From Narcine bancroftii (Eukaryota): a DNA stretch of 64,000 nucleotides. The DNA lies in NCBI RefSeq assembly GCF_036971445.1, contig NC_091471.1, forward strand, positions 341,620,001-341,684,000, read 5' to 3'. A program made the position numbers and the translations under genes. This document shows positions 7,510-29,660 of this stretch, piece after piece (positions within the stretch are counted from its first letter, which is position 1; each line of letters begins with the position of its first letter). The notes below the pieces were generated by a model, which saw only the letters and a list, made by a program, of their open reading frames with translations, did no database searches and was not told the DNA's origin.

Positions 7510-9775
7510 ATTCTGTGCATGACAATAGAGGAATCAACGATGCCTCCCTTCCAGACAGACTGAACATCTTCTATGCACGGTTCGATGAGAAGAACAGGCT
7601 GACGACAAAGAAAACTCTGTGTCCCCCTGATGAAAAGGCCCCCTGCCTAGCCGTGGCTGAGGTGAGGAGAACTCTATCCAAGGTGAACTCACACAATGTG
7701 ATGGGACCAGATAACATACCCGGTCAGGTTCTGAAGGACTGCGCAGATCAACTGACAAGAGGGCCTTACAGACATCTTCAACACCTCACTACAGTCTCCA
7801 TTATCCCTGCGGGTTTAAAGACAGCCACCATCATCCCAGTACCAAAGAGGCTAACAGTAACAGGCCTCAATGACCACTGCACCATGTCACTGACCTTCAC
7901 CATTATGAAGTGATGAAGAATGGGTCAGGCTGCTATTCATTGACTTCAGCTCGGTGTTTAATATGATCATTCCCCAGAGGCAGATGGACTCAACAACCCT
8001 CTCTGCTACTGGATTCTGGACTGCAGAATGTAAGCACCGTCACGCTGAGCACTTGAACACCTCAGGGCTATGTGCTTAGCTTATTCCTGTTCATGCTACT
8101 GGCCCACGACTGCAATGCCAGATCCAGCTCCAACTGAGTCACCAAGTTTCCAGATGACACAACAATAATTGGCCTCATCAGCAACAATGATGAGTTGCAC
8201 TTCAGAGAGTAGGTAGAAATTCTTCTGATGTTGTGCAAGAATAACAACCTTAATCTTGCGGACAAGACAAAGGTGATGATTGTGAATTTCAGGAGGACCA
8301 GGAATGACCAACCTCCACTGCACATTAATAATTCAGGAATAGAGAGAGTAGAGAGCATAAAGTTTAACTCGTGACCTGTCTTGACACACAACATCTCCTC
8401 AATTGTCAGGAAAATGCAACAGTGACTGCACTTTCTGAGAAAATTGAGGTGGGGAAGGCTACCATCCACCATCCTGTCAAGTTTCTGCAGGAGTTCTATC
8501 GAGAGAATCTCGGCTGGCTGCATCACAGTGAGGTATGGTCGCTTGTGGAGCATTGGAATGGAGGTTAATCCACAGGATCATAAGAGCGACAGAGAGGCTC
8601 ATTGGAGTCTCCCCCTCCCCCATCGACATGATCTACCTGCATTGTTGTTTGAAGAGGCTGCACAACATCATTGAGCACCCTACACACAGCATCTTTCAGC
8701 AACTCCTGGGAAAGACATACAGATGTATCCGAGCCAGAATCACGAGACTGAGAATCAGCTTCTTGACATGGGCAGTCAGACTGCAGAGCAACTGAATGAA
8801 CTACTCATACTAACCCTCCGAACTCTACTATTTATGAAATCATATTTATTTATTTTTATATATGCATTATAGATCTTTGGCTTGGCTTCGCGGACAAAGA
8901 TTTATGGAGGGGGTAAATGTCCACATCAGCTGCAGGCTCGTTTGTGGCTGACAAGTCCGATGCGGGACAGGCAGACACTGTTGCAGGGGAAAATTGGTTG
9001 GTTGGGGTTGGGTGTTGGGTTTTTCCTCCTTTGCCTTTTGTCAGTGAGGTGGGCTCTGCGGTCTTCTTCAAAGGAGGTTGCTGCCCGCCAAACTGTGAGG
9101 CGCCAAGATGCACGGTTTGAGGCGATATCAGCCCACTGGCGGTGGTCAATGTGGCAGGCACCAAGAGATTTCTTTAGGCAGTCCTTGTACCTCTTCTTTG
9201 GTGCACCTCTGTCACGGTGGCCAGTGGAGAGCTCGCCATATAACATGATCTTGGGAAGGCGATGTCCTCCATTCTGGAGACATGACCCACCCAGTGCAGC
9301 TGGATCTTCAGCAGCGTGGACTCGATGCTGTCGGCCTCTGCCATCTCGAGTACTTCGACGTAAGGGATGAAGGCGCTCCAATGAATGTTGAGGATGGAGT
9401 GGAGACAACGCTGGTGGAAGCGTTCTAGGAGCCGTAGGTGATGCCGGTAGAGGACCCATGATTCGGAGCCGAACAGGAGTGTGGGTATGATAACGGCTCT
9501 GTATACGCTTATCTTTGTGAGGTTTTTCAGTTGGTTGTTTTTCCAGACTCTTTTGTGTAGTCTTCCAAAGGCGCTATTTACCTTGGCGAGTCTGTTGTCT
9601 ATCTCGTTGTTTTTTATATATGCATTATAGATACTGCTTATGTATCATTTGTATATGCATTATGTCTGGTTGTTTGCTTGCACATTTTTTTTTGCACCAA
9701 AGTCCGGAGAACACTGCTTTGTCGGGTTGTATTTGTGCAATCGGATATTAATAAACTTGAACTTAAATCTTGAAT
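7510..9775 (+). mobile_element. Rex1/Babar-type LINE remnant, interrupted by an RTE at 8875-9610
   Basis: LPDRLNIFYARFD, GPDNIPGQVLKDCADQL, KTATIIPVPK, KFPDDTTIIGLI. 3' tail aataaacttgaacttaaatcttgaa. Confidence 0.8.
8875..9610 (-). mobile_element. RTE LINE, 5'-truncated
   Basis: ORF C-terminus (RLPKIMLYGELSTGHRDRGAPKKRYKD...LSRIGLVSHKRAC). About 22-bp TSD tttttatatatgcattatagat at 8853-8874 and 9611-9632. Confidence 0.92.
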
Positions 9776-10105
9776 AGGCAAGATGAAGGTCTTGGAAGCC
9801 ACAACAACTGTAGTAATTGGTGATGATTTGAGTAAGAATCTGAGAATCTATTGTCATCTACATAAGTTCAATGAATAGATGTGTCAGCATAATTACTTAC
9901 TGAAGCCACAATGCAATACACCAAAAATAATAGCATAAATTAAAGTACCACAATATACCATTTGATAGAAAAAAGAGATGATCAAAATAAAAGGATAAAT
10001 ATTCACAGTTGCAGTTAGTCCAAAAAAAGTGAAGAATCAAAAAATGATTGGAAAGAGTGATCTGTCTCTATCACTGAGGGGAAATTTCTTCCATATTGTT
10101 GATAT

Positions 10106-10924
10106 CTTTGGCTTGGCTTCACGGACGAAGATTTATGGAGGGGTATGTCCACGTCTGCTGCAGGCTCGTTGCTGACTGACAAGTCCGATGTGGGACAGGC
10201 AGGCACAGTTGCAACGGTTGCAAGGGAAAATTGGTGGGTTGGGGTTGGGTGTTGGGTTTTTCCTCCTTTGTCTTTTGTCAGTGAGGTGGGCTCTTCGGTG
10301 GTCTTCTTCCAAGGAGGTTGCTGCCCGCCGAACTGTGAGGCGCCAAGATGCACGGTTGGAGGCGAGATCAGCCCACTGGCGGTGGTCAATGTGGCAGGCA
10401 CCAAGAGATTTCTTTAAGCAGTCCTTGTACCTCTTCTGTAGTGCACCTCTGTCTCGGTGGCCAGTGGAGAGCTCGCCATAGAACACGATCTTGGGAAGGC
10501 AGTGGTCCTCCATTCTGGAGACGTGACCCACCCAGCGCAGTTGGGTCTTCAGCAGCATGGATTCGATGTTTGCGGACTCTGCCATCTCGAGTACTTCGAT
10601 GTTGGTGATGAAGTCATTCCAATGAATGTTGAGGATGGAGCGGAGACAGCGCTGATGGAAGCGTTCTAGGAGCCGTAGGTGATGCCGGTAGAGGACCCAT
10701 GATTCGGAGCTGAACAGGAGCGTGGGTATGACAAAGGCTCTGTACACGCTGATCTTTGTGTGTTTCTTCAGGTGATTGTTTTTCCAGTCTCTTTTGTGTA
10801 GTCTTCCAAAGGTGCTATTTGCCTTGGTGAGTCTGTAGTCTATCTCTTTGTCGATCCTTGCATCAAATGAAATGGTGCAGCCCCCCCCACATCTCCATCG
10901 GGCACACAGAACTCAAAACAGTCA
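10106..10924 (-). mobile_element. RTE LINE with a short 5' inversion
   Basis: 204-aa ORF (YRAFVIPTLLFSSESW, LERFHQRCLRSIL, QLRWVGHV). Inverted PPHISIGHTELKTV segment at 10881-10924. TSD tgttgatat at 10097-10105 and 10925-10933. Confidence 0.92.
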
Positions 10925-11051: not shown

Positions 11052-13305
11052 TTTTTTTTTGAATATTTTATTTTAATTTTCACAGACTGACCAAATCCAA
11101 TAAAACAAAGGCATTCATGTACATATGCATACCCAAAGACTGTATTTGTCCCAACCTGCCCCACCACCCACCACCGTGAATACATTCCACAAGCTTATCT
11201 CAATCCCACTCATCATGGGGCACATAGCCCCTCTCAAGACCTGTAATAAAAAGAAATCACAATGGCAATGCCATTCAAAGAAAACACTAAAAAGTAAAGA
11301 AAACTAAGGCCCTGAAAAGAAAAGGGCAGGTATGTTGTCCACGCCAAATCCTATTTCTGTAATCACACCTCTGGCTGTTCTGGGATAATTTAACCTATCC
11401 ATCTATCAATCTATGTAAGGTTGCCATACTCTCCCAAATGTGTCATGTTTCCCCCATAAGTTATATGTGATTTCCTACAGAGGAACACCACTCTGCATTT
11501 CCCTATTCCATCATGTGGTATTTAGCTGGCAGTCAGACCTCCATACACTTCCTGGCTACCACCAAAGTGGCCTTCACAAATGAAATTTGGAATTTAGTCA
11601 GTCTGAACTGTACTTCTCCAATATCCTCCCAAAAGGAACAGCTCCGGGTCCTGTGGAAAATCAATTCTTGTAATTTTTCTTTTAGAATATCCCCTAGGTC
11701 TTCCAAAAATGTCTCACCTTTGAGCACAGCCAGGTAGAGTGGACGAAAGTTCTCACCTCCACACCACACCTAAAACATACTTATGAAATCTCAGATTTTG
11801 ATCTGTGTAGTTCCTGAGGTATAAGGTACAACTGGTGCAGGAAGTTATACTGCACCATCCTGTATCTGATGTTGACAACCCTTGTCACACTATCCAGACA
11901 CAGGTCCTGCCACCATTTGTCATTCATTGTTGTACCCAAGTCCGACCTTTGTAGGCCTGGCTTTGGATCCTCATTTTGGAATATGCAATATATCTTAGAA
12001 ATAAATTTACACACATTCCTCTTTTGAATTAGAATCTCCATGTCATTACTTTCAAGCAGGGTCATTGCTGGTCCTAATTTTTCCCTCATAGAAGATCTTA
12101 TTTGCAGATAGAAGAATAATGTTCTGTTGGACAAATTATTCTTGTTCTCTGAAAACCCCATGATACATTCTGCCGCCCCCCCCCCACCCTTGTAACAATT
12201 CTTGATACACCTGATCTCCCTTTGACACCAGGTGTCCAGGATCTTATTACTCAGAGTCAAGGGTATTAAATTATTCTAAGTCAGGGGCATTTTGGGGGAT
12301 ATCCCCACCTTCCATCCAATACCTTGTTTTATCTTTTTCCACATCTGAAGTACATGTTTTATGATGGGGTTATCTATTTACTTTAAGAGTAGTTTTACAT
12401 CCCATTTATAAATAAATTCTTCAGCTATCTCTTCACCTAATGAATGCAATCCAATCTTTGTCCACACTGGGGCCACCCTCCATCAAAGAGTAAGGTGATA
12501 AATCTTGCTTGGGCAGCCCAATAATACATTTTAAAGCCAGGTAATTTTAAACTCCCTAATTTATAATCCCATGTTAACTTTTTCATGGAAATTCTAGCCA
12601 CTTTCCCATTCCACATAAATTTCCTGACACACTCATTAAGCACCTCAAAAAAAAAATAAGGCAATGCAATGGCTAAGGATTGGAAAAGATATTGGAGCCT
12701 TGGCATCATCTTCATTTTGACACCGTTGTCTCTGCCCATCAATGTAATGGGCAGAGTCCTCCATCTGACCAGGTCTTCCTCAACCTTCCCGAGTAAAGGG
12801 ATATAATTAAGCTTATACAAATTACGTAAATCCTTATCTACTCTGACCCCCAAGTATTTTCTGGCTTACCTCAGCCACTCAAACTATTGTCACATTGATT
12901 CTGATTGTAATCCCTATTTGTCAGAGGCACAGTCACGCTCTTATCCAAATTTGCTCTGTACCCAAGGAAAACACTGGAGATATCTGCCTGTTTGTAATAA
13001 TTTCGGCTCAAGGTTTATGGTAAAGAGCCTTAATCCAATTGTCCGAATCCAGTCCGAATTTCTCCAGCACCTTGAACAGAAAATCCCACTCCAGTCTGTC
13101 AAAGGCCTTCTCCGCATACAAAGCGACAGCCACTCCTGGGTCCGCCCTTGACTGTGCTAGATGTGCAGCACTTAGCAGACTAGCTATGCTATTTGCCGAT
13201 TTTCTACAAACCCCACCTGTTCTTTTAGTAATTGTTATCTAGTGAACCACCACCAATATATTAAGCATCAACAATTTTCTTTTTGTCAACTACATCCATG
13301 TTTGA
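11052..13305 (-). mobile_element. L1-clade LINE (fish-type) ORF2 remnant with 3' UTR
   Basis: LYKLNYIPLL, PRLQYLFQSL, KMYYWAAQ, QYNFLHQLY and AFDRLEW-like motifs. T-rich tail at about 11052-11080. Confidence 0.8.
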
Positions 13306-16894: not shown

Positions 16895-17790
16895 TACAGA
16901 TGCTGTGATTGTAGTTATAAAATGATAGAGAAACTCAGCAGGTCATGTAGCATTCTTTATGTAACAAAGATAAATATACAAAACCAATAAATCGGACCAA
17001 AGCCCTTCGTCAAAGTATGGGCGAAATGCAGGCAGGTGTTTGAATAATGGGAGAGGGGTAGGGGGAGAAGAACAGGTGAGAGGTCATAGATGGATAAGGG
17101 TGGAAGAGCACAAGAAAAGAGATGAAATGTGATGGGGGCAGGGATAGCTCTCTGAATGGAGAGAGAGGGAGTGGAGACCTGGAGGAAAGAAGACAGAAGG
17201 ATGGGGAAAGGGGGGAGATGGGGGAGGGGCCTAATGGAAGTTGGAGATCTTGCTGTTAATGCCAGAGGTTAATAGAGAGTGTCTGAATGGAAATTTATGT
17301 GTTGCTCCTCCATTTTGTGGGTGGCTTTGGTTTGGCAGTGCATGAGGCCAAGGACAGGCATGTCGGTGTAAGAGAATTTGTCGGTGTAAGAGAATTTAAA
17401 TATTTGGTCACTGGGAGTTCCCTGTCATTGCTGTGGACAGAGCGAAGGCACTCAGCGAAACAATTTCCCACTCTGTGACCAGTCTCTCCGATGGAGAGAA
17501 AGCCATAATGGGAGCACAGGATGCAGTAGGTGAGCCTCATAGATTCACAAGTTAAGTGTTGCTCCACTTGGAAGGACTATTTGCGACCCCCCACATTGTG
17601 GTGAGGGAGGAGTAGCCTTTTCTGCAATAACAGGGGTACCCTCCCCCACCATTTTATTCAGCCACCTGTCTGCATTTTGCTCAGACCTTCATGAAGGGCT
17701 TAGGCCCGTAAAGTTGGTTACATATTGTAATCTTTCCTCCATAAAGATTGCTTAGATGGGAACACTTGGATTTTTTTTGTATATTTTGCA
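16895..17790 (-). mobile_element. Penelope-like element remnant (GIY-YIG domain and inverted pseudo-LTRs)
   Basis: LTYCILCSHYGFLSIGETGHRVGNCFAECLRS (GIY-YIG) at 17295-17567. pLTR on minus at about 16895-17040 and an inverted copy on plus at about 17650-17790. Confidence 0.8.
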
Positions 17791-18548
17791 GTCATGTTTT
17801 ACATGTTGTCTGTTTGCTGTATGAGTAATATTTGTCTTTGTTGCATTATCACGGATCTCCTATAACAAACCCATGAACCATTGGTCAGCAGTGGACTACA
17901 AATTGAGAACTACTGGTTAACATTGGTTAACATGCTGGATAAAAAAAGATTGCACTTGAAATCATCATCCTGAGACTCGTGGTGCCCCCTACTGATCTGA
18001 AATGAGATGGACTACCACTTCTGTTGAAGCCACTGCTATGCTATCAAATTGAAATTTAGTTTCTCTGTTGCCCATACAGATGAGAACTGCTAAGTTTGTT
18101 TTGCACAAAGGTATGTTTGCTGGGCTTGGCAATCAGTTCTCTTTTTTTTTGTTATCACAGAAAGGCAGCAGGCTGGCAGATCATTGAAGCATATCCCATC
18201 TCAATAATATCCTCTCTCAATTCCTCCATTGCTATCGCATTTGCTCCCAGGATGACGTCTTCCATTCCAGATCATCCATTATGTCCACCTTCTTCAAGGT
18301 ATGTGGTTTCCCATCTATCACTATCTACTTAGCCCACAACCCACATCTCCTCTATTTCCCGCACATCCGCCCTTGGATGCCACAAGGACCACCCCTCCAG
18401 TCTCTGTATCCAACATATTACCCTCCATAATCCCACTACCAGGCACATATTTTCTCTTTCTCCCCCCCTCTCCATCTTCCGCAGGGATCACTATCTCTGT
18501 GACTCACTCATCTATTTCCACCAATCGCCCCCTTGACACTTATCCCTG

Positions 18549-21221
18549 TGTAGCTTAGATTGATGGGCACTACCAGTTGCCCCAATAACCACAAGGACAA
18601 AGAATGAGGCGACGATAGGCTATATTGTACAGAAGACTTGAGCTGGCCCAGATCCAAACTAGGGAAGTGCAGGGAAGGGAGAGATGGCTCGAACTTTATG
18701 GCTTAGGCCACAGGGGAGGAGTCCAGGGGAGAGTGTCATCAGGGGGTTGGCCAGCCCGTGCCTTTACCAACCAATGACCATATACAAACCATATACAAAC
18801 CATATCATTACATAGATAAAAGCTCACACTCGACTGGAGGGAGAACTAATGCTTTTATTAGCTTACAACACAAGTAGGGGTCATGAACACGTTTCAGATG
18901 GGTTCTGGGATTAGGCGGGAAACCAGGGCTATATACGGGCTCCCGGGGGAAGGAGCTGGGAGGCGGGACCAGTTATCAGTACAGGACACTTCCAGTGAAT
19001 GCCAGTTCATTACATTCACCCCTTCCTTCAGAATTAAGGATCTGTGGATGAAGAGAACAAGGATCAGAAGCTGGTAATAGACACAGAAGAGAAATGTTTA
19101 TAATACTATTTACAGATTCAGGCGGTCCGGAGGTCCGGAGATCCTCGTGGAGCACCTTAGTACCAGGGTGCCTTGGGACCCACTAGGGGTCCCTCAATAA
19201 GAGAAAAACCCCAGGCATCTCCTCAAAGCCTTTGTGGTTCCAGGGAGGGGAAGCTCTAACAGGGGTTGCATCCGATTAGGATCTGGGCCAATGATGTCAT
19301 TCTCCATCACGTAGCCGAGGAGAGCCAGTCGTGGAGTCCTGAATACTCACTTCTCAGAATTGTAAGTGAGATTCAGGGCTCTCGCCATGTGGAGAAAACT
19401 CTGGAGATTGGGCATCATGGTCTTCCACAGTGTGGGCACAGATGGTGACATTGTTGAGGTTGGGGAAGGTAGCCTTTAACCTGTACTCGTCCACCATCCC
19501 ATCCATCTGCTGCTGGAAAATAGACACCCCATTGATAGTACTGAAAGTGACCCTCCGGAACTTTCAGCCTCAAATACTGTGTGCGGGCGGTCCTCAGAAT
19601 GGATTGGCAGCTGGTGATAGGCAGCTTTCAGGTCGATGTTCAAATACACCTGATACTGTGCGATATCGTTCACCATATCCGAAATGCAAGGGAGGGGGTA
19701 TGCATCTAGGAGTGTGTATCTGTTAATTGTTTGGCTATAGTCAATCATTAATCTGGACCTATTTTCCCCCTTTACTACCACCACTTATGCTCTCCACAGG
19801 GTGGTTCTGGGTTCGATGATCCCCTCCACCAGCAGGCACTGGGTCTCCGTCTTTATAAACTCCCTTTCTGCCACACTGTACCTCCTGCTCTTGGCGGCGA
19901 TGGGCTTACAGTCGGCAAACAGATTTGGGAACAGAGGGGGAGGGTCCATGTTCAGCGTGGAGAGGCTGCAAGTGGGTCCTGGTTTTGAGCGCCCCCCCAT
20001 TCCGAACCGTTAGCAGGGGAAAGGGACCAGAAAACTCCAAGGTCACAGTTTTAAGGTGACACAGGAAGTCCAGACCCAAAAATACTGGAGCACACAATTC
20101 ATCTAAAATGTACATGCAAAATTTACAAAATTCCCCCCCCCCTCCAAATGACAGATGAACTCGACAATGTTTCTGTACATGTGCCGAATGGGACTGGGAT
20201 GCTTGGAATATTCGGTAATTAGAGGGATATATTTTTAAGTTATATTTTTGGACAGTCCGTGAGTCTATGAAACTTTCTGTGGAGCCTGTGTCAATCAGGC
20301 ACTTGGTCGAATGTCTATTTACCTTCACTGACACCATTGAGTTGCCGAGCTGGTGAGGACCATTCTCATCGAGGACCAGCAATGCCAGGTTGCCAGAGAC
20401 ACTGTGTTCTTTTCTTGAATGGCCCCCTCCATCCTGAGTTGACCTGTGCAGGTAAGATGGTGTCAACCTTGTGGTGCAACAAGATGGCCGTCCTCCTTCC
20501 TCCTTCCTCCTCTGATGATGTCACTGAATTCAAAATCAGGCCACTGCAAGATGGCCACTGAGCTTTCTCGTGCCATTTCCGTAGGCGATGGGTTGTGTAG
20601 CAGGCAGTCTTGGGTGAGTCTGACGCAGATGGCTTGGGGCTGGAATCAGATCCAGGAGTGGTACAGGCCATGGACTTCCCTGGACATCCCTTTGAGCGGC
20701 AGATCCTCACCCAATGTCCTTTCTTCCCACAGCTGGAGGACGCTGAGTCTTTGGTTGGGCAATGGAATGGGAGTGCTGTCCCTTGCCACAGAAAAAGCAC
20801 TCCTGGGCTCGGGAAGCGGCAGCCATTAGAGTGTAGGGTAAGCCGGTGCCTCGCTATGACCTTGTTTGATGCCTTCGTGCAGCGGCCCCATATGTAGGGC
20901 AGTCTCGGTTGACTGCGCGCCGCTTCGTCCCTACCCTTGAGATGAGCACCAACCTCCAGAGCTTGTCTCTTTGGAAGACGTCCCTGGTCGTGTTCAGGTA
21001 GGCCTGGAAGCAGTCTAGCCAATATATGAACTCTTCAGCTGTGTCGGGGACTGGGAGTCTATTAGCTGCCAACTGTGCTTGAGTAACTCCTCCATCCTTG
21101 TTTGTAAGCTAATAAAATTGTAGCATTGATAAAAGCTCACACTCAACTGGATGGAGAACAAATGCTTCATGAACAGGCTTCAAAGGGGTTCTGGGAAACC
21201 AGAATTATATACGCGACTACA
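18549..21221 (-). mobile_element. Gypsy LTR retrotransposon, internally deleted
   Basis: tgtag...ctaca ends, 5-bp TSD ccctg. 3' LTR 18549-19014, PPT 19015-19029, internally deleted 5' LTR 21119-21221. Gag (AEEFIYWLDCF; CGKKGHWVRIC), protease LIDTGS, RT LDAYPLP / IDLKAAYHQL, C-terminus LRCSTRISGPPDRLNL. RNase H and most of integrase are missing. Confidence 0.9.
18561..18812. mobile_element. Solo LTR nested in the Gypsy 3' LTR
   Basis: tga...taca ends, 5-bp TSD tagat (18556-18560, 18813-18817). Removing it restores collinearity with the LTR at 21119. Confidence 0.85.
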
Positions 21222-22634
21222 CCCTGTGAATGCAAGAAATGCTACACTTGCACCAACACCTCTCTCACCACAATTCGGGGACCCAAACAGTCCTTCCAAG
21301 TGAAGCAATACTTCCACTTGTAAATTTGCAGGGGTGATCCACTGTATCCGATATTCCTGTTGTGGCCTCTTGTACATCGGGGAGACAGGACACAGACTGG
21401 GAGATCATTTCATGAGCACCTTTTCAGGGTCTGTTGCAATAGCAGGGATCTCCCAGTGGCCAACCATTTCAGTTCCGTGGTCCACTCCCTTGCTGACGCA
21501 TCTGTCCATGGTCTCGTGCACTGCCAAACCAAGGCCACCTGCAAATTTCATTTTGGCAGAATTAATATTCCACCTGTGCACATACAACCACATGAAGTTA
21601 ACATTGACTTCTTTGGTTTCTGTTAGGTCTCTTTTTCCTTCTATCTCTTTTCATCCACTCCCCATCTCCTTACCTCCCAATTTTTAAAATCTTTACTGTC
21701 CTACCCATATCCACCTCTTGCCTCAACCATTTTATGCAAGCACCTACCTGCTTTTTGCTCAGACCTTGATAAAGGGATCAGGTCTGAAAGGTAGGTTACT
21801 TATCTTTGCTCCATAAAAAATGCTGTGAACCACTGAGTTTCTCCTGCACTTTAGTATATTGTACTACAATCACAGAATCTGCAGACTTTTTTTGTATAAC
21901 TCCTAATTCCATTGAGCTATCAGCCCATTAAGTGATGAGTTTTGTAATTCGTATGTAAAGCCACACTTATAGTAATAAGGAGGCATTTTACAAATTTGTT
22001 CTGCGATAGAAACTTAAAGTTCTCTTGCATGTAATCTGACCCAGAAAATAATCACAGCCAGAAGTGAGATATGAAATAACGTTCTCATTTTTTCAGAGTT
22101 TATCTAATCAGTTTTGTCTTTGAATTCCCATTGCTGTTAAAGACAAATTTCATTCTTAATTTTCTTCAATATCAACATTAAAGCCTGTTTTTTGAAAAAT
22201 AATGTTGCAGGTAAATTTCAGAATTTTTTTGATATATAACATAGGCCCCCTCCGAGCTGAATAATAGTTTCTTGTAACGTCTTTGACCTTTTACATCTGG
22301 CATTGATAAATGATAGATGCTTAGGAGTTTGGCAGGACTACACATACAGAACAAAAGCAAGATGAAAATGCAAAAAAAAACATTTTGTCACCATTGCACC
22401 CGACAATTCGGAGCATTGTTGATTCAGGTTTGGGGCAAGTACGGGTATGTGTGGTCAGCTTCAGTGGTTTCCATGCACATGATGGTCTGAAGAACTTGTT
22501 GATTTACTGGATGACTCTACATTTCATTTTAAATAATTTAATTTTTTTGCACAAAAGCTATTTGTATTGCATTAATCCTCAGAATAATATTTCTTAACCA
22601 TTGCAGGCAAACTACCTGCTTTGAATTAGTTAAA

Positions 22635-22870: not shown

Positions 22871-24008
22871 TGAATTAGTACTTTCCAATAAATGTAAACA
22901 GTATATGGTCATTTGTCTTGTTATTCCTGCTAATTTTATATTAAGGACAATACAAAAACATTTCAAAAAAGAGAAAAGCAAATATTTATTGCACCTTCTC
23001 TTTGAGCTTTCCACCAAACCGAATTGGAACACTGACTGAGATGTATAGTGATTGAAAAGTTCTGAAAGTTCAAGAGGTAAAATTATTTAAATGAGAAAAT
23101 TTGACATCCTCCCTGCACAGTGAGATATCAATGTGTCTTCACATACAAAAGAGTATGTCAATAAGATAACGCGATTTTACATCTATCAAAATCCTTCAAG
23201 TAATTCTGTACTGTCATTCGGTGTATTTTTTTAACATTAAGTTTGAATTAAATACTGCACATTTTCTCATATCTACTGATGGCATCAAACCTTCAGACAA
23301 GGTAAATTGCAGGTACTTTTCTAAAGTGGAAGACTGACTCTCACTGCAGGGATAATTCCTCAGGTCTGGTGCTCTTTACTTTTCATCAATGGTTCACCAC
23401 ATACAAGAAGCAGTACAGAAGTCAACAACGACTTGCATGATGGTTTTATGATTGATGAGTGAGCATCAGCATGCCTAGAGGTCAAATTTCTCTTCACCGA
23501 TGAGCTTGAACCTAAAACTAAAAGTTCCAGAATTATATATATATCAAGTGTGTGCAGACTTTTCCAAGTTTACTTTATCAATAAATGAAAGAGTTGATTC
23601 AGGATCCTCACAGAGCTCTGGTTAGTAAGGATAAAGTCATAACCAATTTGTTCTATTTGGAGCATTTCTACAGATGAAGAAATGATTGCCACATCAATGG
23701 GCTGCCTGCCATGACAGTTACCAGAATTGTGGGATACTATTGGGAAAATGTGCAAATATAAACCTCAATTAATCATAGCATATTCAAAGGAAAACACTTG
23801 GCTATCTTCCTAAGATGACTGATCAAGCTCCTGCAATTTGACCTTAAAACTAAAATAAAACACCATCTTGATTATTAACTATAACGAAGAATATCTTCTA
23901 AACACATGGGCTTGATGCCAGGCAATTGTTGATGCAATGCAATGTTCTTGTACATCACCTGGAGAGGTGTTGACTCGTGATGTTTTGCAGCTCCATTACA
24001 CAAAAATG

Positions 24009-24459
24009 CATCAAATCCACGCTGCTAAAGATCCAACTGTGCTGGATAGGTCACGTCTCCAGAATGGAGGACCATCACCTTCCCAAGATCGTGTTATATG
24101 GCGAGCTCTCCACTGGCCACCAAGACAGAGGTGCACCAAAGAAGAGGTACAAGGACTGCCTAAAGAAATTTCTTGGTGTCTGCCACATTGACCACCACCA
24201 GTGGGCTGATATCGCCTCAAACCGTGCATCTTGGTGCCTCACAGTTCGGCGGGCAGCAACCTCCTTTGAAGAAGACCGCAGAGCCCACCTCACAAACAAA
24301 AGACAAAGGAGGAAAAACCCAACACCCAACCCCCAACCCACCAATTTTCCCTTGCAACCACTGCAACCGTGTCTGCCTGTCCCGCATCGGACTTGTCAGC
24401 TGACGTGGGCATTTACCCCTCCATAAATCTTCGTCCGCGAAGCCAAGCCAAAGAAGAAG
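24009..24459 (+). mobile_element. RTE LINE 3' fragment
   Basis: STLLKIQLCWIGHVSRMEDHHLPKIVLYGEL. TSD acacaaaaatg at 23998-24008 and 24460-24470. Confidence 0.92.
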
Positions 24460-26917: not shown

Positions 26918-29660
26918 TTTATTTTGGAGTATTTTATTTTTGATTTTCACAAACTCAACAAACTATAAACAAATCAACTTTATATATGTATTTGTGTGTA
27001 TATGTGTATGTTGTATATATAATATACAACACACACATAAATACACATGATATCTGCAACATCTTTGCAAGTAGGGAGAATTAATCAAACTGTGTGCCAA
27101 TATAATTCAAATGAGGATTTCATATTTTAACAATGTGCCATAATTCTTCCTTATATTGTAAGTGATCTTCTCTAGGGGAATGCAACTCTGCATTTCCATA
27201 TTCCATTGTCAGATGGTTAACTGGGAGTTGGAATTCCATGAAACCACTATATACTTCCTGGCTACAGCTAAGGCAAAGGAGGAAAAACCCAACACCCAAC
27301 CCCAACCAACCAATTTTCCCTTGCAACCGCTGCAATCGTGTCTGCCTGTCCCGCATCGGACTGGTCAGCCACAAACGAGCCTGCAGCTGACGTGGACTTT
27401 TTTTTACCCCCTCCATAAATCTTCGTCCGCGAAGCCAAGCCAAAGAGAACAGCTAAGGTGACCTTCACAAAAGAAATTTGGTGTTTTGATAACTTAAAAC
27501 TCATGTTCCTAATGTCTCCCAAAAGATACACTTATGTTTCTTGTGGAAAATCCACTTTTGAAATTTTCTTAAGAATGTCCCCCAAATTCAACCCAAAAAG
27601 GCCTTCCCTTTGTACATAGCCAGGTGGAGTGGACGAAAGCTCCAACCTCCACACCACATCTAAAGCATATTTCTGAAAAATCAGATTTTGATTTATGTAA
27701 TTTTTGTGGTGTGAGGTGTAGCTGATGTAAGAAATTATATTGCATCAATTTATATCTGGTATAATGATTCCAGTCATTCTGTTCATTACATAGGTCTTGC
27801 CACCACTCTTCGTTAATTTTTGTATTTAATTTTGACTCCCATCTCTCCCTAGATCTATGTAAGTTTGTTTTTGGACTTTGGAATAAGTAATACATTCTAG
27901 ATATAAATTTATATACATTCCCCTGTCAAATAAGAATCTCCATGTTGTTGCATCTAGGTAAAATCATATCTGGTACTAATTTTCCCCTTAAGAAGATTTT
28001 AGTTGCAGACAGCAGAATAATGTTCTAGTAGACAAATCATATTTATTTCTTAATTGTTCAAATGTCATACACTACCTTTACGTATAACAATCTTTGATAT
28101 ATCTGATACATTTCTGGCACCAGATGTCCAGGATCTCATTACCCATAGTCAAACCTATTGAGTTATTTTGGGTCAAAGGCATTTTTGGAGATATCCCAAT
28201 TTTTAATCCAATACATCAATTTATTTTTTCAAAATTTGTAGTTTATGTTTTAGTATAGGGTTATTTGATTTCTTTGAAATTAATTTAGTATTCCATTTGT
28301 AAATAAATTCTCCTGCTCTCTTTTTCATCTATCAACTATAACCCAAATTGTGCCCAAGGCGGGATAGTTGGTTCATCAAAAAATGATGCAATAAACTTGG
28401 CCTGTGCTGCCCGATAATATATATTTTTAAAATTGTGTTATTTTAGTCCTCCAAGTTATAATCCCACATTAATTTCTTCATGGAGAATCTCGCCACCTCA
28501 TCATTCTATAGGAACTTCCTAACACCTTGGTTAATTACCTTAAAAAAAGTTCTGTGGTAATGAAATGGGCAATGATTGAAAAAGATACTAAAGTCTTGGC
28601 ATCACCTTCATTTTGATGTAGTTAACCCTACCTATCAAAGTTTTAGGCAGAGCTCTCCATCTAGCTAGATCGTCTCCCAATCTCCAGAGCAAGGGGAGGT
28701 AATTAAGTTTGAACAAATTACATAAATGTTTATCTACTTTTAAACTATTTTATTCCTTCTTCTGGCCACCTGAATTGACAATCTTGTCTATAATCCCCAT
28801 TTGTTAAAGGTATATTTTCACTTTTATCCAAATTCACTTTATAACCCAAAACATTCCCATAATATTCCAGTGTGGTCCTTAACATAGTCACAACTTTCCC
28901 GGTCTGTCAAATATATTAATACATCAGCAGCAAAAAGATTGCTTTTATGATCCATCTGGTCCACCTTGAACCTCTTTATGTCTGGATCCCATCAAATGGT
29001 TTCCACCAGTGGTTCTATTGCCAGTATGAACAGAGCTGGGGATAATGGGCAGCCCTGTCTACTGGACCCATTCAATGGAAAAATTGGAGACATCTGTCCA
29101 CTTGTAAAAATGTTAGCTTGGGGTTTATGATAAAGTGTCTTCGCCCAATTAATGAATCTTTGGCCCAATCCAAATTTCTCTAGTACCTTGAAAAAATGTC
29201 CCATTTCAATCTGCTGAAGACCTTCTCCTCATCTAGAGCCATGGCCACTCCCAGATCCAGTCCCACTTGTGCTAAATGTATTAAAAAAAACAATCTAGTT
29301 ATGTTGTTTGTTGATTGTCTTCTTTCAACAAATCCAGTTTGATCTGGATTTGTAAATTTTGCTAGATATTTTGCCAATCCATAGCTAATGTTTTAGCAAT
29401 AATTTTATAATCCGTATTTATTAAAGAGATTGGTCTATAGGAGGCAAGATTTAAGGGATCCTTGTCTCTTTTTTTGGGATTACCATGATGGTAGGTTTTG
29501 TGAAAGATTCTGGGAGAATATGTGTCTCCGCCACTTGATCCACCGCCTTCATAAGAAGGGGCATTAGAATATCTTCTTCATAGAATTCAGCAGGGAAACC
29601 ATCCTCCCCCAGTGATTTTCCAGCTTGTAAAAAGCTCAAAGTCCTGTAATCTCTTCATTT
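26918..29660 (-). mobile_element. L1-clade ORF2 remnant (RT to CCHC)
   Basis: GEDGFPAEFY, PISLINTDYKI, DQTGFV, SSRQGCPLSPALFILAIEPL, CFRCG...HSTWLC. Confidence 0.85.
27274..27448 (+). mobile_element. RTE 3' fragment nested in L1
   Basis: Same RTE 3' end as other copies. TSD acagctaagg at 27264-27273 and 27449-27458. Confidence 0.9.

What the first reader, a model, noticed from the sequence alone, without database searches (positions are those of the whole stretch)
18853..21118. Gypsy element with no tRNA PBS: the primer site is complementary to its own LTR (candidate self-priming system)
Seen: directly after the 5' LTR on the minus strand there is no TGG-type PBS. Instead ttttattagcttacaa (21117-21102) is a perfect 16-nt reverse complement of an LTR segment preserved in the 3' LTR at 18853-18868, extendable by acaag across one indel. 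That segment includes the AATAAA signal and lies about 60 nt downstream of the TATA-like tatata. The gag ATG follows within about 25 nt. Known: Tf1/sushi-type elements self-prime using a PBS that pairs with the first bases of their transcript. Inference: here the pairing target is the poly(A)-signal region, so one hairpin could both supply a tRNA-independent primer and mask the 5' LTR poly(A) site.
Basis: partly seen in the sequence, partly recalled or inferred. Interest (0 to 1): 0.72.

Follow-up and report, generated by a model that had tools for sequence, protein, structure and literature searches.

The report
Retrotransposons primed by poly(A)-signal hairpin
This broken jumping gene in a ray-like genome belongs to a widespread animal group whose primer site pairs with the poly(A)-signal stretch of its own end repeat instead of carrying the usual tRNA signature, so these elements likely start copying themselves with a piece of their own RNA.

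Summary
The 16-nt match is real (longest in 3,000 shuffles: 12). This copy cannot form the hairpin, because its 5' LTR has lost the target in a 27-nt deletion. Its family keeps the target, and 21 of 32 copies pair over at least 12 bp.

The trait is clade-wide. In 30 representatives (8 from this genome, 22 from metagenome contigs), each primer site pairs with its own LTR: mean 14.0 bp versus 5.8 bp for other LTRs, and 0 of 50,000 permutations reached this. A solo LTR nested in this copy belongs to a further family with the same pairing. The helix always ends in TAAA, which is AATAAA or ATTAAA in 24 of 30. Three outgroup elements have TGG-type sites and no pairing. None of 38 polyproteins has a chromodomain.

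tRNA-independent self-priming is likely (about 0.85) but inferred. Promoter-like motifs suggest the helix lies 30-40 nt inside the transcript rather than at its 5' end as in Tf1, but no start site was mapped. Masking of the poly(A) signal is untested.

I found no paper on this in 9 searches; key Tf1/sushi papers and Repbase were unavailable. This scan noted the same trait six times on other DNA.

The parts
21222..21226 (-). 5-bp target-site duplication, upstream copy (CAGGG)
   Evidence: same 5-mer at 18548-18544
21119..21221 (-). 5' LTR, 103 bp, TG...CA. Three deletions relative to the 3' LTR; a 27-nt one (between 21168 and 21167) removes the pairing target and its AATAAA
21102..21117 (-). 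Primer-binding-site position, 1 nt after the LTR's CA; no TGG; 16-nt complement of the LTR target
20369..21095 (-). Decayed gag from the ATG at 21095; weak zinc-knuckle match (Pfam E 0.012)
19909..20520 (-). Open frame holding the aspartic protease (PF13975, E 2e-07)
19200..19784 (-). Broken reverse transcriptase (PF00078, E 1.4e-05 for 19479-19784). Most of RNase H and integrase is missing: the element spans 2.7 kb including a 0.25-kb insert, against about 4.4 kb for a longer family copy. The lower bound is approximate
19015..19029 (-). Polypurine tract
18813..19014 (-). 3' LTR, main part
18930..18935 (-). TATA-like TATATA in the 3' LTR, starting 67 nt before the target
18853..18868 (-). Pairing target in the 3' LTR, ending in AATAAAA
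18561..18812 (-). Nested solo LTR of another family with the same pairing (family F), inserted near the end of the 3' LTR with a 5-bp duplication (18817-18813 and 18560-18556)
18549..18555 (-). Last 7 bases of the 3' LTR, ending in CA
18544..18548 (-). 5-bp target-site duplication, downstream copy (CAGGG)

Best explanation
This is a decayed copy from a chromodomain-less Ty3/Gypsy clade whose primer-binding site pairs over about 14 bases with a segment of its own LTR ending at the poly(A)-signal position, and which likely primes reverse transcription with that piece of its own RNA. Shown: the pairing, its covariation across families, its fixed register (the arm starts about 1 nt after the LTR's CA; the helix closes on TAAA; the loop is 21-68 nt), and its absence in three TGG-type relatives. 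Inferred, by analogy with Tf1: the 5' LTR target folds onto the primer site, the element's RNase H cuts just 3' of UAAA(A), and reverse transcriptase extends that end through the loop. The short strong-stop DNA would then jump to the roughly 20 nt between AAUAAA and the poly(A) site in the 3' LTR. Inferred and weaker: the helix lies about 30-40 nt downstream of the start site rather than at the cap. Also inferred and weaker: it hides the 5' AAUAAA, while the 3' LTR, with no primer site behind it, leaves the signal free.
For: Covariation: 30 representatives give a cognate helix of mean 14.0 bp (range 9-18; 28 of 30 at least 12) against 5.84 bp for non-cognate pairs. Only 20 of 870 non-cognate pairs reach 12, all between relatives with similar targets; 0 of 50,000 permutations reached the observed sum. 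Unsupervised search upstream of gag in metagenome loci: 26 of 34 testable starts give at least 12 bp and 30 of 34 give at least 9 bp, with the arm right behind the LTR's CA (includes redundant copies). Two-sided changes appear between close families: A versus A2, B versus D, L121 versus L123. Genome-wide junction pattern: 5,386 matches against 1,247 for the reversed control; 20 of the first 30 extend to at least 11 bp, beyond the 7 bp built into the pattern. Blind check: the nested LTR family F gave a 14-bp helix in L270, and L284 and L286 show the same arm with one change each. Controls: three TGG-type elements pair with their own LTR over only 4 bp and fall outside the self-pairing clade in an RT tree (FastTree support 0.83). 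No complement longer than 4 nt to 27 host tRNA sequences of 10 amino-acid types. Promoter-like motifs: TATA at -59 to -70 from the helix start in four ray representatives, TTAAAG with an Inr-like TCATTC at -38/-39 in three others, and none of 13 TATA hits at -22 to -35.
Against: No primer, cut site, start site or poly(A) site was observed. Only 10 of 30 LTRs have any TATA hit, so the start-site inference is weak outside the ray families. Six of 30 helices end on non-canonical GTTAAA or TTTAAA, and one further relative (L129) pairs on a target ending GATGAA. The 30 representatives are not independent, and the metagenome arms were chosen by their longest helix. The tRNA set is incomplete: it lacked the partner of the TGG-type controls. 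The tree has only five outgroup rows and no named reference clade. In 4 of 34 metagenome starts no positioned helix was found.
Confidence: 0.6

Rival explanations
1. Plain Tf1-type self-priming: transcription would start at the first base of the target, so the primer is simply the first 13-18 nt of the RNA, and the poly(A) signal lies in it only because R is short.
For: Tf1 uses its first 11 bases, cut by RNase H (PMC7175516, passages). The helix length is narrow (9-18 bp), as expected if the primer is short and is copied into the primer site. Twenty of 30 LTRs have no TATA hit at all.
Against: None of 13 TATA hits lies 22-35 nt before the helix, and the ray families point to a start about 30-40 nt upstream. 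Most helices begin on T or C, which are uncommon start bases (base preference recalled).
Confidence: 0.2
2. Self-priming by the 3' LTR copy: the target near the RNA's 3' end would pair with the primer site, circularising the RNA, and would be cut or trimmed back to UAAA to give the primer.
For: The target lies in both LTRs and ends at the poly(A)-signal position, near the RNA's 3' end. Sequence alone cannot tell which copy pairs. In L165, L144 and L203 the loop is only 21-24 nt.
Against: The local hairpin is the predicted minimum-energy fold in nearly all 30 representatives and would form first during transcription. Tf1 primes from the 5' end.
Confidence: 0.1
3. The helix would only regulate RNA processing, masking the 5' poly(A) signal, while priming uses some other, unidentified RNA or site.
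For: 24 of 30 helices cover AATAAA or ATTAAA. Retroviral poly(A) hairpins are a precedent (recalled).
Against: The arm starts 1 nt after the LTR's CA, exactly where minus-strand synthesis must begin to regenerate the LTR end. No TGG site exists. The helix is kept when the hexamer is non-canonical.
Confidence: 0.07
4. A host tRNA fragment or other small RNA would prime, and the LTR match would be incidental.
For: Half-tRNA priming is reported for Copia lineages (PMC6317226, passages). My tRNA set is incomplete.
Against: Nine representatives in one genome carry several different primer sites, each matched by its own LTR. Best tRNA match was 4 nt. No Rfam match overlapped the primer site or the target.
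Confidence: 0.03

Closest known systems
Tf1/Tf2 (Schizosaccharomyces pombe), Tj1 (S. japonicus) and the Tf1/sushi group
   Same: Ty3/Gypsy element with no tRNA site; the sequence just after the 5' LTR is complementary to a segment of the LTR (PMC7175516, PMC4600332, PMC5341516; passages).
   Different: No chromodomain in 0 of 38 polyproteins. RT motif is YLDN, YMDN or YIDN in 99 of 120 relatives. The helix is about 14 bp rather than 11 and ends on the poly(A)-signal position. It is probably internal rather than the first bases of the RNA (unmapped). Hosts are sharks, rays, cnidarians and a nematode.
Plant Tcn1 chromoviruses and TAR (Houba, Osr-1) Copia elements
   Same: Self-priming predicted from at least 10 bp of complementarity between the post-LTR sequence and the LTR (PMC6317226, passages), which is the same kind of evidence as here.
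   Different: Different hosts and lineages. The passages read make no link to the poly(A) signal.
Dictyostelid Skipper and fungal GalEa elements
   Same: No canonical tRNA site, and unusual priming suspected (PMC5006619, PMC6934838; passages).
   Different: Skipper has a polypyrimidine tract and no LTR complement. GalEa has an internal hairpin that does not involve the LTR.
HIV-1 poly(A) hairpin (recalled, no call)
   Same: A helix hides AAUAAA in the 5' LTR.
   Different: There the partner strand lies inside the LTR and priming uses a tRNA. Here the partner is the primer site itself, which exists only behind the 5' LTR.

Membership tests
Ty3/Gypsy LTR retrotransposons | TG...CA LTRs, target-site duplication, polypurine tract | tested here: met
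   5-bp duplications and a PPT in the window copy and in family copies
Ty3/Gypsy LTR retrotransposons | Domain order gag-PR-RT-RNase H-IN | tested here: met
   Best solved-structure match of a relative (P0032) is Ty3 Gag-Pol, E 3e-55
Tf1/sushi group | No tRNA primer site; post-LTR sequence complementary to own LTR | tested here: met
Tf1/sushi group | Chromodomain at the end of integrase (chromovirus) | tested here: not met
   0 of 38 full-length polyproteins match a chromodomain family at E 0.01; none listed among 120 relatives
Tf1/sushi group | Target is the first bases of the transcript | tested here: inconclusive
   Motif spacing suggests an internal position; the available runs were contigs and cannot show starts
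Tf1/sushi group | RT groups with Tf1/sushi in a tree | not testable with these tools
   No named reference RT sequences were obtainable; the tree has only unnamed outgroups
Tf1/sushi group | RNase H cuts the RNA duplex to release the primer | not testable with these tools
   Needs biochemistry
tRNA-primed Gypsy elements | TGG-type site complementary to a tRNA 3' end | tested here: not met
   No TGG in the family copies or the 30 representatives. At most 4 nt match to a partial set of 27 tRNAs
Named animal Gypsy clades (Mag A/B/C, CsRN1, Cigr-1, Tor2, MolGy1-16) | Placement in RT/RNase H tree with the reference elements | not testable with these tools
   Two marker motifs were not found in the readable supplements of PMC6238403 and PMC8556966 (four files not searched)

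The most novel reading that the evidence does not exclude
A large animal Gypsy clade evolved self-priming independently of Tf1/sushi and uses a different design. The primer is cut from inside the transcript exactly at the poly(A) signal. One helix then supplies the primer, silences the 5' poly(A) site, and fixes the strand-transfer region as the signal-to-tail distance, whatever the transcription start.
Probability: 0.35. Interest if true: 0.8.

Novelty: new variant of a known kind. Interest (0 to 1): 0.62.

Why it matters
In the papers read, self-priming is demonstrated for Tf1 and tied in animals to the Tf1/sushi chromoviruses. A chromodomain-less clade spanning sharks, rays, cnidarians and a nematode would probably be a further origin. 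It has thousands of junctions in this genome alone. Such elements would be expected to escape silencing by tRNA fragments that target primer sites (abstract of PMC7472051, search listing). They would also be missed by annotation tools that demand a TGG site. If the primer is internal and cut at the poly(A) signal, it is a new way to couple priming with RNA 3'-end control. Young families make this directly testable on native RNA.

Tried and rejected
Mini-LTR idea: a pattern search gave 6,672 matches that looked like 80-bp LTRs starting 16 nt before the target. The flanks showed the motif is internal to a full-length LTR. Rejected; the family only added another compensated variant.

Second helix between the loop and the gag start (U5:AUG type): cognate -10.1 versus non-cognate -10.8 kcal/mol, 18,433 of 20,000 permutations as good. 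Rejected.

Conserved stem next to the helix: longer than the shuffled mean in 19 of 30, seen mostly in metagenome families and not in ray families B and D. Not claimed.

Sequencing runs: no holder on record as RNA was listed. Four contig sets from one study could show neither start nor poly(A) site.

Protein searches with decayed pieces found nothing. The Atlas gave only integrase C-terminal look-alikes. Rfam gave three chance-level hits, none at the site.

Five primary papers (Levin 1995; Lin and Levin 1997 and 1998; Esnault and Levin 2015; Atwood-Moore 2006) were not held. Scripts 60 and 64 ended in errors and were rerun; the motif census printed in 64 is valid.

Full report
Observation. Minus-strand 21117-21102 is a 16 of 16 reverse complement of the 3' LTR segment 18868-18853, and 3,000 shuffles of the LTR never exceeded 12. 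The element runs from 21221 to 18549 on the minus strand between 5-bp duplications. It has a 103-bp 5' LTR, decayed gag, protease and RT, little of RNase H or integrase, a polypurine tract, and a 3' LTR interrupted by a 252-bp solo LTR of another family. The 5' LTR has lost the target in a 27-nt deletion, so this copy cannot form the local hairpin.

Family in the genome. The genome is 3.3 Gb. The closest named proteins are from cartilaginous fishes, the best at 97% to an electric-ray protein for family B. The LTR and the primer-site region each gave over a thousand first-look candidates, of which 40 were scored. Among 32 copies with LTR-primer junctions, 21 pair with their own 5' LTR over at least 12 contiguous bp and 23 over at least 10; the rest carry point changes or truncations. 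None has a TGG site. Of 24 longer loci examined, self-comparison showed LTR pairs in 14. These belong to further families (A2, A3, B, C), with D and E found later; they have different LTRs and correspondingly changed primer sites. Family B includes copies with 92-100% identical LTRs, so it is young. A junction pattern had 5,386 matches against 1,247 for its reversed control. Of the first 30 matches, 20 pair over at least 11 bp, 7 are decayed junctions with 7-10 bp, and 3 are chance. The nested solo LTR served as a blind test. Of 20 loci of its family, three had a primer site behind the LTR: one a perfect 14-bp complement and two with one change each.

Other organisms. RT relatives come from sharks and rays (75-81% for other species), cnidarians (64-65%), the nematode Trichuris suis (60%) and many metagenome records. 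Three collection scans gave 94 loci. A gag start was located 38 times and 34 had enough upstream DNA. An unsupervised search found a helix of at least 12 bp in 26 of 34, and of at least 9 bp directly behind the LTR's CA in 30 of 34. The four misses were L130, L156, L167 and a second start in L179. These counts include redundant copies. I reduced them to 22 representatives and added 8 from this genome. The cognate helix averaged 14.0 bp (range 9-18) and the non-cognate 5.84 bp. The own LTR was best or tied in 30 of 30 and strictly best in 25, and 0 of 50,000 permutations reached the observed sum. The rows are not independent and the metagenome arms were selected by helix length, so the permutation value overstates certainty. 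The cross-family specificity does not depend on that selection.

Fixed geometry. In all 30 the helix closes on TAAA(A): AATAAA 16, ATTAAA 8, GTTAAA 5, TTTAAA 1. The loop is 21-68 nt. The next bases are G/A-C-C in 20 of 30. The TGG-type outgroup L204 has AATAAAGCCT in its LTR without pairing, which suggests this position is the ordinary LTR poly(A) signal recruited into the helix. Against a strict masking role: six helices cover non-canonical hexamers, two of them with a free canonical hexamer in the loop, and L129 pairs on a target ending GATGAA.

Clade. In a 49-row RT tree the self-pairing elements, the named proteins and five loci without a scored helix form one group (FastTree support 0.83), apart from three TGG-type elements and two other outgroups. 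L203, L226 and L243 were left out for lack of a long RT segment. The three TGG-type elements pair with their own LTR over only 4 bp. No chromodomain was found in 38 polyproteins, and 99 of 120 relatives carry N at the last position of the RT YxDD motif. I could not place the clade against named references.

tRNA. The 27 distinct host tRNA sequences of 10 amino-acid types give at most 4 nt of complement. The set is incomplete: it also missed the partner of the TGG-type controls. The stronger argument is that different sites within one genome each follow their own LTR.

Where the primer comes from. Tf1 uses its first 11 bases, cut by RNase H (PMC7175516, passages). Here TATA-like boxes lie 59-70 nt before the helix in four ray representatives. 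Families B and D show TTAAAG with an Inr-like motif 38-39 nt before it, and none of 13 TATA hits lies 22-35 nt before it. This points to an internal primer, but only 10 of 30 LTRs have a TATA hit and no start was mapped, because the runs were contigs.

Mechanism. Shown: pairing, covariation, register and clade distribution. Inferred: a cut 3' of UAAA(A), extension through the loop, transfer via the signal-to-tail stretch, and masking of the 5' signal. Self-priming in some form has about 0.85-0.9 of my belief, of which the internal 5'-LTR version has 0.6. If the plus strand copies the retained primer, as the title of a Tf1 paper suggests (Atwood-Moore 2006, seen only as a reference title), LTR changes would be written into the primer site automatically. 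That would explain the covariation; it is an inference.

Literature. Nine searches showed no paper describing this trait in a chromodomain-less animal Gypsy clade. I saw passages of PMC6934838, PMC6317226, PMC3601003, PMC5006619, PMC7175516, PMC5341516, PMC4600332, PMC6238403 and PMC2864245, and searched supplements of PMC6238403 and PMC8556966 (four files unreadable or not fetched, which may hold clade sequences). Five primary Tf1 papers were not held; I did not look up Butler 2001, and Repbase is not searchable, so prior description cannot be excluded. This scan's own notes report the same trait six times in other genomes and not elsewhere in this genome. They are unchecked and not counted as evidence; my reading was recorded before that call.

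Verdict. A real, clade-wide self-pairing primer site and a new variant of a known kind: it works like Tf1 but fails the chromodomain test for the Tf1/sushi group. The window copy itself is a dead and poor example. Interest 0.62.

Noticed in passing
window 18561-18812 (-): Solo LTR of a second family with the same pairing, nested in the last bases of the 3' LTR with its own 5-bp duplication; 2,832 first-look candidates in the genome.
   Followed up: yes
P0001-P0120: The RT catalytic motif ends in N instead of D (YLDN, YMDN, YIDN) in 99 of 120 relatives. One paper search for YLDN with 'retrotransposon' gave one unrelated hit. How such an RT binds its metals is unexplained.
   Followed up: partly
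window about 21227-21690 and 16950-18548: The Gypsy element appears to sit inside a Penelope-like repeat; a frame at 21304-21687 resembles a GIY-YIG endonuclease by eye (recalled motif, not scanned). Related pieces at 16949-17752 form inverted repeats.
   Followed up: no
window 8870-10912, 23974-24454, 27120-27452: Several copies of the 3' part of an RTE-like LINE, 86-98% alike, in both orientations; the family label is from memory.
   Followed up: no
window 11437-12963 and 27132-28846: Two older copies, about 75% alike, of another LINE-like repeat 15.9 kb apart.
   Followed up: no
L108, family A3 LTR: The AATAAAAGC of the LTR also has a 9-bp complement further along the same LTR, an alternative poly(A) hairpin possible in both LTRs (seen sequences); not general across families.
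   Followed up: no
L196-L205, L208: Animal-type Gypsy elements lie in contigs filed as bacterial metagenome-assembled genomes, probably host DNA contamination.
   Followed up: no
L129: A divergent relative pairs its primer site with an LTR segment ending GATGAA (14 bp) rather than TAAA.
   Followed up: partly
G000:C1:22692130-22692481: Two family D LTR-primer junctions face each other within about 350 bp, an inverted arrangement.
   Followed up: no
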